Shown here in pieces: positions 2,716-7,886 of a stretch of DNA of 64,000 nt. Source of the stretch: a cyanobacterium endosymbiont of Rhopalodia gibba. GTDB taxonomy: Bacteria; Cyanobacteriota; Cyanobacteriia; Cyanobacteriales; Microcystaceae. Below the pieces are notes generated by a model. That model was not told the DNA's origin. It saw only the letters and a list, made by a program, of their open reading frames with translations, and searched no databases. The position numbers were made by a program, and so were the translations under genes. Positions within the stretch are counted from its first letter, which is position 1. Every line of letters starts with the position of its first letter. The DNA is taken from contig CP067995.1 of the NCBI GenBank assembly GCA_045159875.1, positions 128,001 to 192,000 of the forward strand, in the 5' to 3' direction.

Positions 2716-3363
2716 ATGACTGTGGAGCTACTGTAGCTGGCTAACACATAATAAATTGTGCGTCAATATGGTTACTGGGCAGTGTTTATGGGCATCACCT
2801 TAGAAAATATAGGAATTCCCATTCCTGGGGAAACCATTAATATTACCGGAGGAGTCCTAGCTGGAAGTGGAGATTTAAATTATTGGATAGTGATAGGAAT
2901 GGCCACTGCAGGAGTAGTTCTCGGCAGTAATTTTGGCTATTGGATTGGTCGGTTAGGAAGTTGCGCAGTTTTATTAGTATTTGGGCGTTTATTTAGAATT
3001 CCTCAAACAAAATTAGAGGAAGCTAAGGCATTATTTGGTAATAATGCGGTGAGTGCTATGTTTTTTGGACGCTTTGTAGCGTTGTTGCGGATTTTTGCCG
3101 GACCCATGGCGGGGATTATTAAAATGTCCTATAGTCAATTTTTGCTATGTCACTTTGGTGGGGCTGTGATTTGGGCATCTTTTATGGTGACTTCATCTTT
3201 TTTTGTGGGACGCATTATTCCCCTACACCAATTAGTTGAGTCCATGGCTCAATCGAGTATTGTTGCATTGGCTTTGTTGACAGCTTGGATTGTTATTCCT
3301 TGGTGGCTAGATCGTAGAAATCAGAAGTCTCCGACTTCAGGCTCGAAGACTATAACAGACTAG
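2716..3363 (+). pseudogene. dedA: DedA family membrane protein with three in-frame stops in the first 13 codons (possible re-initiation at GTG 2758)
   Basis: ENIGIPIPGE and FFGRFVALLRIFAGPMAG motifs; in-frame ATG 2716 reads MTVELL*LANT**IVRQYGYW. Confidence 0.7.
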
Positions 3364-4172
3364 AACCTCCATAAATGATTGATTCAGGAATCTTCCATCT
3401 CTATCACTCCTGTGATGAAATATCTGGATAAATTACCCCAATCAACGTAAGTTTGACGAAATTTTAAATAAGAGAAAGGAGGCCAGTTTACTTTTCCTTC
3501 ATGAATCTAAGATAAGGTTTTTTATCTAAAATCAAGTATAAGCAAGTTGTTTATGAGCAAATTACAGTTTGGGTTCTAAATGCCGTCCCACCATAATCTT
3601 AGTCCCATCTAGCTGAGCCTTTAAAAACTTAGTGTGATCTACTGCTAGCCTGATAAACGACTCGTATCGGAGTAGAGTCAATCAATACTAATTCCTGTAA
3701 TTTTTTCCTTGCAAGTCTGTAAAAAACAGAAAGGTGACACCATCGTCTAGGATACAGCCACCACAAAACAATTGGAGTTTATTAGATTAGGAAATACTTT
3801 GTCACAATGGAGAAGAACCCGTAACGTAACTAAATCCTTTAAAAGTTTGGTATCCTGACCCAGGAAAAGTGATTATAATGCTCGTAACTTCATCTCTTTT
3901 CAAATGAGAACGGCATTCTTCTCCAATAAATAAAATACTGTTAATTGAAGAACAGCACTGTTATTCTGTCCAAATTTTTGATGAAAGTCATCTAAATCAC
4001 AAAATATTTTGATAAGTATCGAGACAAAATCTTATATTAATAGCACTAAACTTTAATAAATACTGTTTTTAGTATAAAGTTACCGTCCTGTCTGTCCATG
4101 AGTTTCTTTCGAATCCACTTTACGTTAGTCATTTTTTAGAAAAAGTTGGTAAGCTATTAGGTAATAGGATAA

Positions 4173-4235
4173 ATCGTTCATCTGCCTACTTGGTAGACGG
4201 AAGTAAGGAGTTGTGAGAGCTTCTGAAGGAACGCG
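4173..4235 (+). ncRNA. Glutamine riboswitch, class I (glnA RNA motif)
   Basis: P1 CGTTC(4175-79)/GAACG(4229-33); P2 TCTGCC/GGTAGA; junction CGGAAGTAA; P3 AGGAGTT/AGCTTCT; then GAAG, matching the recalled glnA-motif layout. Confidence 0.88.
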
Positions 4236-4272
4236 CCTCATTCGATAATTCAACGAATTTGAAGGAGGCGAC

Positions 4273-4434
4273 ATGAAATCTCATAATAATTGTCTTAGTT
4301 TTAAGTCCAAAGATAGGTTGCTGTCTGTTGCGGAACAGTTGCGTTTTCTGATCAGCCAGGATCGCCGAAAACAGCAAAATCGCCAACTTTCTATGCGATA
4401 CAGACTAGCGTCTGAAGTAGGGACGGATATTTAA
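4273..4434 (+). CDS. Glutamine synthetase inactivating factor-like small protein (IF7/IF17 family), 53 aa; not in the ORF track
   Basis: MKSHNNCLSFKSKDRLLSVAEQLRFLISQDRRKQQNRQLSMRYRLASEVGTDI; the NRQxSMxxRxAxEVG core resembles IF7; SD GGAGG at 4264-4268; riboswitch directly upstream. Confidence 0.8.
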   Translation: MKSHNNCLSFKSKDRLLSVAEQLRFLISQDRRKQQNRQLSMRYRLASEVGTDI

Positions 4435-4453
4435 CAGTCAATTCATGACTAAT

Positions 4454-4481
4454 GTGGGAATCAATAGTTGTTGATTCCCAC
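4454..4481 (+). terminator. Stem-loop after the IF-like ORF
   Basis: GTGGGAATCAA-tagttg-TTGATTCCCAC, 11-bp perfect stem, no clear U-tract. Confidence 0.55.
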
Positions 4482-4582
4482 CAATGACTCCCTACTGATT
4501 TACTTTAGATGTTCACGACAGAAAAAAATAAATTGTGACCAACAACAACCAACAAAACATTAAACAAATTCACCGCACGAAT

Positions 4583-4810
4583 ATGTTACGGATTCTCAAA
4601 TACCGCTTAAAAGTTACCAAACAACAAAGTAACATCCGGTTAATTGAACAACTCGAAGCTGAATAGGCGTTGTTACAGTGATTTTGCCTTGCAGTGACAG
4701 ACGTTGGTCCTGTCTCATGTAAATCAGAAAGTCTCACGCAAAGTTTTCATAGAGTATGGAGTTGCTATAAGAATTAGAATTCTAGGCTTTTGGTGGGCGA
4801 CGCCCAACTT
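4583..4810 (+). mobile_element. Possible IS200/IS605 tnpB N-terminal relic
   Basis: MLRILKYRLKVTKQQ resembles the TnpB N-terminus (xKYRLYPTxEQ); stops after 27 codons. Confidence 0.3.
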
Positions 4811-4843
4811 AAGTTCAATGATTTTGAGGAAGTTGGCCAATAC

Positions 4844-5296
4844 TTAAAAAGGAATTGGATCTTCTTCTCCATCAAAAGTGGTTAAGGTAGGAGTAGGGAC
4901 AGGCTGGACCGATTCGGGATAGGCGGAAGATTGGTAAGAATCTCTAGAAACAACATTATCCTCAGAAGTAAAAGGGATTGGGGAAGTGGAGTAAGTGTCT
5001 AAGGAATAAATATGGGAAGCGACTAACTCAACCCGTTTTTCTTTAAATCCCTCAGGACGGTCAACAGTATTCATCGAAAGACGACCTTCAATAATCAGGC
5101 AGTCACCTTCTTTGTAGGTATTTTGCATTTGGGTTGCTAAACTACCCCATCCAATCACTTTTATGCTGGAAGCCAAAGCTTCCGGGCGTCTCCCTGTAAA
5201 CTCCACTAACATTTGAGCAATCGGGGTTTTATCGTCTTGAGTATAACGTAATTCTGGGGGACGGATTACTTTAATCATTAAAACACAACTATTCAT
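4844..5296 (-). CDS. ssb: Cyanobacterial single-stranded DNA-binding (SSB-like) protein
   Basis: PELRYT and IIEGRLSMN OB-fold motifs; acidic DPIPF tail. Confidence 0.85.
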   Translation of the reverse strand: MNSCVLMIKVIRPPELRYTQDDKTPIAQMLVEFTGRRPEALASSIKVIGWGSLATQMQNTYKEGDCLIIEGRLSMNTVDRPEGFKEKRVELVASHIYSLDTYSTSPIPFTSEDNVVSRDSYQSSAYPESVQPVPTPTLTTFDGEEDPIPF

Positions 5297-5360
5297 CGAA
5301 TCAACTCCTTAACTATCGTTAATCATCAGTGTGAATTTTTATTGAATTTATTTTCATCGG

Positions 5361-7886
5361 TTACATACTGATCATTTCTCCTTGTTCTTGCTCAATAAAA
5401 CTTTGAACTTTCTGACGGTAATCTTTGAGAGACATATCTACCCATTCACGATCATCACTATTAGCAAAAATATGGACTAAAGGTTCTCCTGCGTCCGGTA
5501 GAATAAGAACCCAACTATCATTTTGAGGATTAATAACCTTCACTCCGTCAATCAATTTTAGCTGTTCTGGGGAGTGGGTTTCTACTAGATAACGCATCAA
5601 AGATCCTTTGACTTTCCAAGGACAGCGAACCGAATAAGACTTATGGCATACTCGTGGCAATTCAGCTCGAATCTGTGCCAATGAGCGCTCTTGAATAGTC
5701 AACATTTCTATTAATTTAGCAATACCGAACATTGCATCAAATCCTGGGTGTAGTTGAGGAAAAATAAAACCCATATCCCCACTTCCTCCCAAAGACACAT
5801 TAGGGTTAGTTTGAGACGCTTCCATCAAAGCGGTGGGGTTGGCTTTAGTGCGAATCACCTTACCATCATGGCGGCGGGCAATTTGTTCGACGGCACTAGA
5901 TACTTCCACCGGGACCACCACAGTACTACGAGGATAAGCTGTAAAAATAGTATTCACCATTAATGCTGTGAGCAATTCTCCGCGAATGGGTAATCCTGAC
6001 TCATCCACCAGGATAAATTGCTCCCCATTGGCAGACACCTGAACTCCTAAATTAGCTGTAACTGCTTCTACCACTTGGCCTAGTTGGTGTAACAAGGCTT
6101 CTCGTTCTTCGTTAGAGACTGAGGTTTGTCGTAAGCTGGCATTGAGAACCACCACATCACAGCCAAATTTTGTCAATAGTTGGGGTAGAATAGCTCCTGA
6201 AACTCCGTAAACATAGTCAATAACAACTTTTGAGCCACTATGGCGAAGTGCTTCCACATTAAGTTGGGTTTCAAAAGTATTGCGGTAGTTTTCAATAATT
6301 TGGGTGGGGTAAGACATATCACCAATCTCTGAGATTCCAACCCGTCGTAGGTCTTCTTTTAAATAGGCTCCTTCAATTTTCTTTTCCTTAGATTTAGAGA
6401 TATTAATGCCCTGTTCATCAAAAAATTCAATGAGGATATGATCAGGGCGATCTGGATGAGCCCGTAGGTGAACTCCGCCAGTAACCTCTAATTTCGGGGT
6501 TAGAATGCGGGTAATGGGAATGGCTGTCGCTTCTAGGTTTTGAATGTCAATACCCACAGACATCAACCCAGCAATCAAAGAACGGCTGACCATACGAGAG
6601 ACACTACGCTGGTCACGGGAGACAACGACCTGAGAACCCAGTTTTAAGGTTGAACCGTAGGCTGCACCCAATTTAACAGCAAATTCAGGAGTAATGTCGA
6701 TGTTGGCTAGTCCTGTTACACCCCTTTGACCAAATAAATTGCGATGGGCTATATTACCCCAAATCAAATTGATATTCAATATAGCCCCCGATTCGATGCG
6801 TTTGCTAGGCCAGACGCGAACACTTGGGCTAATCTGGGCCTCTTCTCCAATCGTGGACAATGAGCCCACCACCGCCCCTTCTAGGATTTGGGCACGCCGA
6901 TCAACCCGTGTTCCCCTAGCAATAACACAGGCAGCTAGATAAGATTCGTCTCCAATTGTAACTCCATTCCATAGAATGGGACGTTTTAGGTCTGCCCCTG
7001 CGCCAACGGTGACATTATCGCCGATTACACTTCCTTTTTCTATAACGACCTCCGGACCAATGCGACAATTGTGACCGATAAGGATGGGGGGGGTAATTTT
7101 AGCTGTGGAGTCGATATAACTATTTTGTCCTAACCAAAATCCAGGGGATGTCTCTTCATAGGCAAAATCTAAAATCACTTTTCCTTCTAGAGCATCATAT
7201 TGAGCTTGTCGATAAGCTTCTAAACTCCCAACATCACACCAGTATCCCTCGGCGATAAACCCATATATGGGTTCACTTTTTGAGAGAAGGAGCGGAAAGA
7301 GATCTTTAGAAAAGTCCGATTCTTCATTATCAGGAAGATATTGTAGAACTTCAGGTTCGAGGATATAGGTTCCAGTGTTGACGGTATCCGAAAAAATTTC
7401 GCTAGTGGAGGGTTTTTCTAAAAAACGGTTAATTCGTTGGTGTTTATCGAGAATCACTACTCCAAATTCAACTGGATTAGGAACGCGGGTGAGGACTAGA
7501 GTGGCTTTAGATTTTTTTTGTTTATGAAAAGTGATCGCCTTTTGGAGATCAAAGTCTGTGATACAATCTCCACTAATTACTACAAAGGTAGTATCAAGGA
7601 GTTCTTCAATATTTTTGACACAACCTGCTGTTCCTAAAGGTTGATCATCTTCTACTGCGTAGGTCATTTCTACCCCAAAATCACTGCCATCTTGGAAGTA
7701 GTCCCGCATTACATCCGGGAGATAGTAGAGGGTAGCAATGACTTCTCGAATGTTATTACGTTTTAACAAATTAATGATATGTTCGGCAATGGGTCGATTT
7801 AGGATGGGAACCATTGGCTTAGGCAGATCGCAAGTTAGGGGTCGTAACCGAGTTCCTGATCCCCCAGCCATTATCACTGCACGCAT
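5361..7886 (-). CDS. Mannose-1-phosphate guanylyltransferase / phosphomannomutase-like fusion
   Basis: MAGGSGTRLRPLT..PKPM NTP-transferase domain, hexapeptide repeats, LFGQRGVTG PGM/PMM-like C-terminal domain. Confidence 0.9.
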   Translation of the reverse strand: MRAVIMAGGSGTRLRPLTCDLPKPMVPILNRPIAEHIINLLKRNNIREVIATLYYLPDVMRDYFQDGSDFGVEMTYAVEDDQPLGTAGCVKNIEELLDTTFVVISGDCITDFDLQKAITFHKQKKSKATLVLTRVPNPVEFGVVILDKHQRINRFLEKPSTSEIFSDTVNTGTYILEPEVLQYLPDNEESDFSKDLFPLLLSKSEPIYGFIAEGYWCDVGSLEAYRQAQYDALEGKVILDFAYEETSPGFWLGQNSYIDSTAKITPPILIGHNCRIGPEVVIEKGSVIGDNVTVGAGADLKRPILWNGVTIGDESYLAACVIARGTRVDRRAQILEGAVVGSLSTIGEEAQISPSVRVWPSKRIESGAILNINLIWGNIAHRNLFGQRGVTGLANIDITPEFAVKLGAAYGSTLKLGSQVVVSRDQRSVSRMVSRSLIAGLMSVGIDIQNLEATAIPITRILTPKLEVTGGVHLRAHPDRPDHILIEFFDEQGINISKSKEKKIEGAYLKEDLRRVGISEIGDMSYPTQIIENYRNTFETQLNVEALRHSGSKVVIDYVYGVSGAILPQLLTKFGCDVVVLNASLRQTSVSNEEREALLHQLGQVVEAVTANLGVQVSANGEQFILVDESGLPIRGELLTALMVNTIFTAYPRSTVVVPVEVSSAVEQIARRHDGKVIRTKANPTALMEASQTNPNVSLGGSGDMGFIFPQLHPGFDAMFGIAKLIEMLTIQERSLAQIRAELPRVCHKSYSVRCPWKVKGSLMRYLVETHSPEQLKLIDGVKVINPQNDSWVLILPDAGEPLVHIFANSDDREWVDMSLKDYRQKVQSFIEQEQGEMISM

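What the first reader, a model, noticed from the sequence alone, without database searches (positions are those of the whole stretch)
4173..4481. Intact glutamine riboswitch driving an unannotated 53-aa glutamine-synthetase inactivator in a decaying diazotroph genome
Seen: complete class-I Gln riboswitch, SD, a 53-aa ORF with the NRQxSMxxRxAxEVG core and a downstream hairpin, all intact while flanking DNA decays. Known: in Synechocystis this riboswitch is a Gln-ON switch for gifB (IF17), whereas the short IF7 (gifA) is controlled by NtcA/NsiR4. Here the riboswitch precedes an IF7-sized protein lacking IF17's long N-terminal region. Inference: in an N2-fixing endosymbiont, Gln-triggered GS shut-off could act as an overflow valve that releases fixed ammonium to the host.
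Basis: partly seen in the sequence, partly recalled or inferred. Interest (0 to 1): 0.82.

Follow-up and report, generated by a model that had tools for sequence, protein, structure and literature searches.

The report
Glutamine-switched mini GS inhibitor, kept in endosymbiont
A nitrogen-fixing diatom endosymbiont still carries a glutamine-sensing RNA switch in front of a tiny gene for a probable inhibitor of glutamine synthetase; the module is inherited from free-living relatives and has been kept while two neighbouring or related nitrogen-control genes decayed, so it may control how much fixed nitrogen the symbiont keeps.

Summary
Rfam's Glutamine riboswitch model (RF01739) matches window 4173-4237 over its full length at 52.4 bits (cut-off 35). 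An anti-SD (CGCCUC, 4234-4239) pairs with the SD. A 53-aa ORF (4273-4434) aligns with the arginine-bearing core of the GS inactivating factors IF7/IF17. A 12-bp hairpin follows at 4454-4481.

The short form lacks IF17's DUF4278 domain and the IF7 C-terminal tail. It is not an endosymbiont invention: 10 of 31 riboswitch loci examined, including three larger genomes of the same genus, carry it. In those relatives it is usually followed by pirA.

In the reduced genomes canonical gifA is gone and pirA is a wreck; window 4535-4666 is its remnant. The riboswitch and mini-gif are conserved, with dN/dS 0.04-0.14. The cassette is intact in 3 of 5 reduced genomes, tail-frameshifted in one and cleanly deleted in one.

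Best reading: an ancestral glutamine-ON feedback brake on GS that is still in use. The "ammonium overflow valve for the host" remains an untested overlay, weakened by the two reduced genomes that lack the cassette.

An earlier scan report (e1-2585665) noted the mini-IF7/PirA operon in a Crocosphaera genome. I found no paper describing it.

The parts
3590..4100 (.). Debris of a dispersed repeat (probably a dead mobile element) upstream of the cassette. It is not part of the functional unit.
   Evidence: 13 other partial copies at 67-81% identity in G000, and many in sister reduced genomes. There are no long ORFs, and 6 stop-to-stop fragments gave no Pfam hit.
4140..4172 (+). Conserved segment directly upstream of the aptamer; likely the promoter, but its hexamers are not resolved.
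   Evidence: 4147-4172 is 92-96% identical to G006, G001, G004 and G002, against 38-87% for 4100-4146. No GTA-N8-TAC with at most 1 mismatch lies within 75 nt upstream in any reduced genome. The sigma-70 scan found no site ending here.
4173..4237 (+). Type-1 glutamine riboswitch aptamer (glnA RNA motif, RF01739).
   Evidence: 52.4 bits against a gathering score of 35, full model 1-53. It is 94-98.5% identical among reduced genomes while the flanks diverge 13-30%. Both stems show changes on both strands that keep pairing in G002, G005 and G007 (alignment).
4234..4239 (+). Anti-SD CGCCUC, starting with the conserved C that follows P1.
   Evidence: It pairs with GAGGCG at 4265-4270 in both the MFE and the centroid fold. 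CGCCUC, or a one-base variant, directly follows the aptamer in 25 of the 31 riboswitch loci listed. It fits the model of PMC6212724.
4261..4272 (+). Shine-Dalgarno GAAGGAGG plus a 4-nt spacer.
   Evidence: Read directly from the sequence. The platform 4238-4272 is 89-97% identical in all six genus relatives.
4273..4434 (+). 53-aa mini-gif: a homologue of the IF7/IF17 core without DUF4278 and without the IF7 C-terminal tail.
   Evidence: ORF. NF052599 gives E 1.9e-4, aa 18-52 against profile positions 2-36. BLASTP to the canonical IF7 of G007 gives 35% identity over 37 aa. R24, R37 and R44 are invariant in 20 sequences. dN/dS is 0.04-0.14 among reduced genomes. The model is a single helix over residues 7-49, with mean pLDDT 87-96 for the blocks covering residues 21-50.
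4454..4481 (+). 12-bp hairpin after the stop codon, between mini-gif and the pirA remnant.
   Evidence: Fold. 2 of 12 pairs show compensatory change in 5 sequences. It is present in the reduced genomes and G002 and absent in G005 and G007. It has no U tract.
4535..4666 (+). [quoted passage not shown]
   Evidence: NF050139 scores 40.5 bits, below the cut-off of 50. Intact PirA of relatives scores 54.6-84.2. Both ATGs and the SD are lost and the C-terminus is cut. G006 and G001 have in-frame stops, the gene is unrecognisable in G004 and its 5' end is deleted in G003.

Best explanation
This is an ancestral cyanobacterial feedback module that is still working in a reduced, N2-fixing endosymbiont.

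Mechanism:
- The leader RNA folds into a type-1 glutamine aptamer.
- Without glutamine, the C that follows P1 and the next five bases (CGCCUC) pair with the Shine-Dalgarno region and block ribosomes.
- With glutamine bound, that C is recruited into the aptamer's long-range pair, the SD is freed, and the 53-aa protein is translated.
- The protein is a single basic helix equivalent to the GS-binding core of IF7/IF17, with its three conserved arginines. It most likely binds and switches off glutamine synthetase type I.
- Because it lacks the stabilising N-terminal domain of IF17, it is probably short-lived, which would make the brake quickly reversible.

The result is direct glutamine-to-GS negative feedback with no recognisable NtcA input at this promoter.

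Shown here: the aptamer, the SD/anti-SD pairing and its conservation, homology of the core, purifying selection, and loss of gifA and pirA. Inferred: glutamine binding, ON polarity, GS inhibition and short half-life.
For: RNA:
- The RF01739 match covers the full model at 52.4 bits against a cut-off of 35.
- The anti-SD/SD helix appears in the MFE and centroid folds.
- CGCCUC, or a one-base variant, directly follows the aptamer in 25 of the 31 riboswitch loci listed, among them all 20 gif-linked ones.
- Aptamer and platform are 94-98.5% identical among reduced genomes, against 70-87% for the neighbouring non-coding DNA.
- ON polarity and the RBS-release model come from Synechocystis gifB (PMC6212724: passages, Fig. 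S3 legend).

Protein:
- NF052599 (IF7A) gives E 1.9e-4 over the core.
- In the 20-sequence alignment, R24, R37 and R44 are invariant. They align with R8, R21 and R28 of a canonical 65-aa IF7 that scores 125 bits.
- Three conserved arginines are essential for IF7 action (PMC6316151, section 2.3).
- dN/dS among reduced genomes is 0.04-0.14. For example, 6 synonymous against 1 non-synonymous change (G000 vs G006) and 11.5 against 7.5 (G000 vs G001). Binomial p ranges from 1e-4 to 6e-4, though the pairs are not independent.

Matched internal control: the equally small pirA next door is broken in all 5 reduced genomes.

Target and pathway are present: GS is intact at 473 aa, and GOGAT, NtcA, PII, Amt and nifH are all found.

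This is the only gif-like gene left in G000.
Against:
- The protein scores 21.6 bits against the IF7A model, well under the cut-off of 70. It lacks both the IF7 C-terminal tail and the IF17 N-terminal domain, which the review says improves GS inactivation and stability.
- The cassette is dispensable. G003 deleted window 3235-4575 yet keeps an intact GS. G019 (1.5 Mb) has GS but neither gif nor riboswitch.
- G004 carries an 8-nt duplication that replaces the last five residues.
- Transcription of this unit could not be shown. RNA-library contigs of about 8.3 kb cover the whole region, silent DNA included.
- No promoter hexamers could be assigned.
Confidence: 0.7

Rival explanations
1. The mini-gif is a real, selected protein, but its target is not GS, or not only GS. 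It might act on another nitrogen-status protein such as PII, or serve as a partner of PirA in the ancestral two-gene operon.
For: - It keeps only about 35 residues of the IF7 fold and fails the IF7A cut-off.
- In relatives it is co-transcribed with pirA, whose product binds PII (PMC8092223 abstract).
- Small basic helices can be promiscuous.
- A third, acidic gif-like paralogue exists in larger relatives (L066, L067), so the family has diversified.
Against: - The three arginines that the review calls essential for IF7-GS interaction are invariant, and so are M41, L26 and E48 at 90% or more.
- Many riboswitch-linked long forms also lack the C-terminal tail, so the core is the common denominator of the family.
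- The protein is kept after pirA decayed, so its role does not depend on PirA.
Confidence: 0.15
2. The cassette is a relic with no present function in this genome. It survives only because it is small and has not yet been hit, and it will go the way of gifA and pirA.
For: - It has been deleted in G003, is absent in G019 and is frameshifted at the tail in G004.
- A related database protein (P0003) ends at V49.
- The surrounding DNA is decaying.
Against: - dN/dS is 0.04-0.14, with synonymous divergence of 0.2-0.5 between reduced genomes.
- Aptamer and platform are far more conserved than the flanks.
- pirA, a target of the same size in the same transcript, is broken in 5 of 5 reduced genomes. 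The mini-gif core is unbroken in 4 of 5.
Confidence: 0.1
3. The riboswitch's main job here is transcriptional or RNA-level control, through attenuation or stability via the downstream hairpin, rather than translational control of the ORF.
For: A conserved hairpin follows the ORF, with 2 compensated pairs. PMC6212724 states that the mode of action of type-1 switches remains unclear.
Against: - No terminator-like stem lies between the aptamer and the start codon. The only strong helix there sequesters the SD.
- The hairpin lies after the stop codon and lacks a U tract.
- It is absent in G005 and G007, which have the same switch.
Confidence: 0.05

Closest known systems
Synechocystis sp. PCC 6803 gifB leader: type-1 glutamine riboswitch controlling IF17 (Klähn et al. 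2018, PMC6212724)
   Same: Both use the same aptamer family (RF01739), with a C-led anti-SD that follows P1 and pairs with the RBS. In both, the gene downstream encodes a protein with the IF7-like GS-interacting core. The logic is the same: glutamine turns on a GS inhibitor.
   Different: The product here is 53 aa rather than 149. It has no DUF4278 N-terminal domain and no C-terminal YW..IQGK tail. No NtcA box was found at the promoter, whereas gifB is NtcA-repressed. In relatives the gene is followed by pirA in one unit.
IF7 (gifA) of Synechocystis and IF7A of Anabaena (NCBIfam NF052599)
   Same: Both are small and share a basic helical core with three arginines at spacings of 13 and 7 residues.
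   Different: Only profile positions 2-36 of 66 are matched, at 21.6 bits against a cut-off of 70. The protein here has an extra, poorly conserved 17-aa N-terminus. It is controlled by a riboswitch; published passages describe gifA as repressed by NtcA and IF7 as the target of the sRNA NsiR4. The canonical gifA of larger relatives (L061-L063) has been lost from all 5 reduced genomes.
IF17-like DUF4278 peptides behind type-2 (Downstream-peptide) glutamine riboswitches in marine picocyanobacteria (PMC6212724)
   Same: These are also glutamine-riboswitch-gated small proteins derived from the gifB family by truncation.
   Different: They kept the opposite half. Picocyanobacterial peptides retain DUF4278 and lack the GS-interacting C-terminal part (passage). 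This protein retains the GS-interacting core and lacks DUF4278.
Mini-IF7 plus PirA riboswitch operon noted by this scan in a Crocosphaera genome (e1-2585665)
   Same: Both have the same architecture: RF01739, a cut-down gif, then pirA. I confirmed it independently in G002, G005, G007, G009, G010 and G040.
   Different: Here the second gene is a pseudogene and only the first half of the operon is maintained. The host is a reduced endosymbiont.

Membership tests
Glutamine riboswitch, type 1 (Rfam RF01739, glnA RNA motif) | Covariance-model score above the curated gathering score over the whole model | tested here: met
   52.4 bits against 35, model positions 1-53 of 53, not truncated. The own-genome search gave the same result.
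Glutamine riboswitch, type 1 (Rfam RF01739, glnA RNA motif) | Helices maintained by compensatory change in relatives, with invariant junction nucleotides | tested here: met
   The junction strings AUCGUUCAUC, GACGGAAGUA and GAAGGAACGC match the consensus exactly. Stem positions change on both strands in G002, G005 and G007. I did not run a formal covariation count.
Glutamine riboswitch, type 1 (Rfam RF01739, glnA RNA motif) | Expression platform: the conserved C after P1 and the following bases pair with the RBS | tested here: met
   4234-4239 pairs with 4265-4270. The pairing is conserved across loci. The model is described in PMC6212724.
Glutamine riboswitch, type 1 (Rfam RF01739, glnA RNA motif) | Selective binding of L-glutamine and ligand-dependent gene expression | not testable with these tools
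   This needs in-line probing or ITC and reporter assays.
GS inactivating factors IF7/IF7A (NCBIfam NF052599 equivalog) | Profile score above the curated cut-off over the full length | tested here: not met
   21.6 bits against 70, with only profile positions 2-36 of 66 matched. The canonical IF7 of G007 scores 125 bits.
GS inactivating factors (gif family, IF7/IF17 core) | Homologous basic core with the three conserved arginines needed for GS interaction | tested here: met
   R24, R37 and R44 are invariant in 20 sequences. They align with R8, R21 and R28 of canonical IF7. The essential role of three arginines comes from PMC6316151. Assigning that role to these particular positions is my recollection of Saelices et al. 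2011, which I did not see.
IF17 (gifB) | N-terminal DUF4278 (PF14105) domain | tested here: not met
   The protein has no Pfam hit, and DUF4278 is found nowhere in G000 at E up to 10. A long form (L030) has it at aa 1-57.
GS inactivating factors (gif family) | Binds and inactivates glutamine synthetase type I | not testable with these tools
The PDB copy holds no solved IF chain.
GS inactivating factors (gif family) | NtcA-repressed promoter (GTA-N8-TAC over the core promoter) | tested here: not met
   No match with at most 1 mismatch lies within 75 nt upstream in G000, G001, G004, G006, G005 or G007. G002 has one 1-mismatch site at -63. Degenerate sites cannot be excluded.
PirA (NCBIfam NF050139), for the second ORF 4535-4666 | Profile score above the cut-off and an intact reading frame with a start signal | tested here: not met
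   40.5 bits against 50. Both ATGs and the SD are lost and the C-terminus is truncated. Orthologues in G006 and G001 carry stops.

The most novel reading that the evidence does not exclude
During genome reduction the diazotrophic endosymbiont lineage discarded the NtcA/sRNA-controlled inhibitor (gifA) and the arginine-branch regulator (pirA). It kept only the riboswitch-gated mini-inhibitor. GS in the symbiont would then be throttled directly by its own glutamine pool: when glutamine backs up, GS is shut off and newly fixed ammonia leaves for the host. Lineages that lost the cassette (G003, G019) would have handed this control to the host or to other means.
Probability: 0.25. Interest if true: 0.75.

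Novelty: new variant of a known kind. Interest (0 to 1): 0.52.

Why it matters
How nitrogen-fixing endosymbionts are made to give up fixed nitrogen is an open question. [quoted passage not shown] Another proposes simple ammonia diffusion (PMC12377750).

This locus supplies a concrete, testable molecular handle. It is the only remaining GS-inhibitor gene in the genome, it is wired to glutamine alone, and it is under purifying selection. Nature also provides comparison lineages that lack it.

More generally, the data show that the published link between the glutamine riboswitch and DUF4278/IF17 misses a second widespread product class: a mini-inhibitor without DUF4278, often in an operon with pirA. 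Pfam-based surveys cannot see this class.

Tried and rejected
- **Expression.** Four RNA-seq runs of one sample hold the stretch. Their assembled contigs of about 8.3 kb cover 3300-5400 uniformly, including the repeat debris. They show neither transcription of this unit nor its ends, so they are not evidence either way.
- **Solved structures.** The PDB copy holds no IF7/IF17 chain for the peptide, the 20-sequence profile or the canonical IF7.
- **GS contact residues.** I recalled E419, N456 and R459 from Saelices et al. 2015. A search for these terms found no relevant paper. The three residues are invariant in all 27 GS sequences aligned, including gif-less G003, so they discriminate nothing.
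- **Nature of the upstream repeat.** Six stop-to-stop fragments gave no Pfam hit. A dead transposase is only a guess.
- **Promoter.** No sigma-70-like site ends just before the aptamer and no NtcA box was found.
- **Literature.** I searched for a glutamine riboswitch together with diazotroph or endosymbiont terms, PirA together with glutamine riboswitch, and gifA together with Crocosphaera. I also searched terms in four diazoplast papers. None of this turned up a description of the locus. For some searches only the listings were seen, and bioRxiv supplements are closed.
- **Hairpin as a repeated element.** Only one 21-nt partial copy exists elsewhere in G000.
- **Origin of the short form.** I did not attempt a tree on about 35 aligned residues to decide whether it descends from gifA or gifB.

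Full report
**1. What is in the sequence**

Rfam's Glutamine riboswitch model (RF01739) gives the only Rfam hit in the 64-kb window. It matches 4173-4237 (+) at 52.4 bits (gathering score 35), E 1.2e-8, over all 53 model positions. The junction strings AUCGUUCAUC, GACGGAAGUA and GAAGGAACGC match the consensus exactly.

The SD GAAGGAGG lies at 4261-4268, and the ATG at 4273 opens a 53-aa frame that ends at 4434.

The leader RNA folds so that CGCCUC (4234-4239, beginning with the C that follows P1) pairs with GAGGCG (4265-4270). This helix appears in both the MFE and the centroid structure.

After the stop codon a 12-bp hairpin occupies 4454-4481. It has no U tract, and the terminator scan found no site.

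**2. What the protein is**

- Pfam finds nothing.
- The NCBIfam model for IF7A (NF052599) matches residues 18-52 to profile positions 2-36 of 66, at E 1.9e-4. The score is only 21.6 bits against a cut-off of 70.
- I aligned it with nine other short riboswitch-linked ORFs and ten long IF17-type proteins taken from riboswitch loci of relatives. It covers exactly the shared core, and R24, R37 and R44 are invariant in all 20 sequences.
- BLASTP against a canonical 65-aa IF7 of a larger genome of the same genus (125 bits on NF052599) aligns these three arginines with R8, R21 and R28.
- A review states that three conserved arginines are essential for IF7 to bind and inactivate GS. It also states that IF17's 82-residue N-terminal part confers stability and improves inactivation (PMC6316151, section 2.3).
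- The long forms carry DUF4278 at residues 1-57. The window protein has no such domain, and none was found anywhere in this genome.
- It also lacks the C-terminal YW..IQGK tail that canonical IF7 and the longest IF17 forms share.
- AlphaFold2 on the 10-sequence alignment gives one helix over residues 7-49. Mean pLDDT is 87-96 for the 10-residue blocks covering residues 21-50.

The protein is thus a minimal 'core-only' member of the gif family. It is not an IF7 or IF17 orthologue in the strict sense.

**3. The arrangement is not an endosymbiont invention**

RF01739 was found in 28 of 41 genomes searched (G000 and 40 relatives), including all 7 other genomes of the genus. I classified the first ORF behind the switch in the 31 loci fetched:

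| ORF behind the switch | Loci |
|---|---|
| Short core-only forms, 49-61 aa | 10 |
| Long DUF4278-plus-core forms, 101-152 aa | 10 |
| 72-76-aa membrane protein | 4 |
| Small proteins with an F.F..W motif | 3 |
| Other or unclear | 4 |

The 10 short forms lie in 10 genomes: G000, G001, G004, G005, G006, G007, G009, G010, G021 and G040. They include genomes of 4.6-5.5 Mb.

In G002, G005, G007, G009, G010 and G040 the short gene is followed within about 20-95 nt by a 49-54-aa ORF. Four of these (G007, G009, G010, G040) were scanned and score 54.6-84.2 bits on the PirA equivalog NF050139, whose cut-off is 50. An earlier report of this scan (e1-2585665) had noted this 'mini-IF7 plus PirA' operon in a Crocosphaera genome. 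That note led me to test the second ORF, and the test here confirms the layout independently.

Klähn et al. searched 600 nt downstream of each aptamer with Pfam. For three strains they list a non-DUF4278 result or none: DUF2996 for Cyanothece PCC 8801, and 0 for two Cyanobacterium strains (Table S1). A core-only product would have been invisible to that method. The searches listed under Tried and rejected turned up no paper describing it.

**4. What happened in the reduced genomes**

The genus holds five genomes of 2.5-3.1 Mb (G000, G001, G003, G004, G006) and three of 4.6-5.2 Mb (G002, G005, G007).

A profile of the short forms finds a second paralogue in each of the three larger genomes at E about 1e-8. 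That of G007 scores 125 bits as canonical IF7. A weak third paralogue appears in G005 and G007. The reduced genomes have at most the riboswitch-linked copy, and G003 has none. tblastn in G000 confirms there is no canonical IF7, no long IF17 and no second PirA.

The pirA behind the mini-gif is degraded in all five reduced genomes:

| Genome | State of pirA |
|---|---|
| G000 (window 4535-4666) | Both ATGs and the SD lost, last residues cut, 40.5 bits (below cut-off) |
| G006, G001 | In-frame stops |
| G004 | Unrecognisable |
| G003 | 5' end deleted |

The switch and mini-gif are maintained by contrast. Identity of G000 to G006, G001 and G004 by segment:

| Segment | Identity to G006 / G001 / G004 (%) |
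|---|---|
| Aptamer | 98.5 / 98.5 / 93.8 |
| Platform | 97.1 / 97.1 / 94.3 |
| 100 nt after the ORF | 86 / 77 / 70 |
| 4100-4146 | 87 / 72 / 83 |

Pairwise dN/dS of the ORF among the four reduced genomes is 0.04-0.14, with dS of 0.2-0.5. The excess of synonymous changes gives binomial p of 1e-4 to 6e-4 for the five of six pairs tested. These pairs share branches and are not independent.

Against essentiality:
- G003 has a clean deletion of window 3235-4575 that removes the switch and gene.
- G004 has an 8-nt duplication that replaces the last five residues while keeping all three arginines.
- A related database protein ends at V49.
- A 1.5-Mb genome of the same family (G019) has GS but neither gif nor switch.
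- GS is intact at 473 aa in all eight genus genomes.

**5. Context**

G000 encodes nifH, GS, Fd-GOGAT, NtcA, PII and an Amt transporter.

No GTA-N8-TAC with at most one mismatch lies within 75 nt upstream of the aptamer in six of seven genus genomes. Glutamine therefore appears to be the main input at this gene.

A second RF01739 copy in G000 (C1:1765765-1765842) precedes a 76-aa membrane protein of unknown function. All five reduced genomes have a riboswitch match of this kind.

**6. Mechanism and its limits**

The platform fits the published model for Synechocystis gifB. On glutamine binding, the conserved C after P1 forms a long-range pair with a G of the aptamer. That C and its neighbours otherwise pair with the RBS, and the authors postulate that glutamine melts this helix and allows initiation (PMC6212724; passage, Fig. 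S3 legend).

Glutamine-ON polarity is experimental there and is inferred here. GS inhibition by this core-only form is likewise inferred from homology. The complex predictor was unavailable, no IF structure exists in the PDB copy, and the RNA-library contigs were uninformative.

**7. Verdict**

The finding is real. It belongs to a known kind of system: a glutamine riboswitch driving a GS-inhibitor homologue. The product class, core-only and ancestrally paired with pirA, is one I did not find described in print.

The module is inherited, not new. What is notable is its selective retention while gifA and pirA were lost, together with natural loss-of-cassette lineages available for comparison.

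The 'overflow valve' remains a hypothesis, and I put it at about 0.25.

Noticed in passing
window 4535-4666 (+); L054, L059, L060 for sister genomes: [quoted passage not shown] It is intact in larger relatives. No other pirA copy was found in G000.
   Followed up: yes
G000:C1:1765765-1765842 (L002:1501-1578), ORF L002:1616-1846: A second glutamine riboswitch (50 bits) precedes a 76-aa predicted membrane protein with no family. The expression platform differs and has no CGCCUC. The same ORF was seen in G002 and G003, and riboswitch matches of this type occur in all 5 reduced genomes, including the gif-less G003. The protein atlas gave only hypothetical cyanobacterial clusters.
   Followed up: partly
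window 3235-4575 versus L037 (G003): A clean 1.34-kb deletion in one sister reduced genome removes the 3' end of the VTT/DedA-family gene, the repeat debris, the riboswitch, the mini-gif and the start of the pirA remnant. The VTT gene copy left in G003 is only 81% identical, and the printed stretch shows stop-like codons.
   Followed up: partly
window 3590-4100: Fragments of a dispersed repeat, with 13 other partial copies at 67-81% identity in G000 and many in G001, G003 and G006. One minus-strand fragment reads like the start of a transposase, but no Pfam hit was obtained.
   Followed up: partly
L005, L007, L010 (G020, G012, G013): A further class of riboswitch-linked small proteins (51-69 aa) shares a C-terminal D/E-F-x-F-x-x-W-x-x-x-V motif. 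They are unrelated to the gif core and their function is unknown.
   Followed up: no
L066 (G005) and L067 (G007): A third gif-like paralogue of 71-74 aa occurs in larger relatives. It starts like IF7 (24.7 bits on NF052599 for L067) but is acidic and seems internally repeated. It is absent from the reduced genomes.
   Followed up: no
window 4454-4481 and G000:C1:2018776-2018796: The hairpin after the mini-gif arose as an insertion shared by G002 and the reduced genomes and is absent in G005 and G007. A 21-nt exact partial copy lies elsewhere in G000.
   Followed up: partly
L008 (G028) and L014 (G035): Riboswitch-linked ORFs with YRG repeats of the DUF4278 type but without the gif core. One has a hydrophobic tail. 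These are the mirror image of the core-only form.
   Followed up: no
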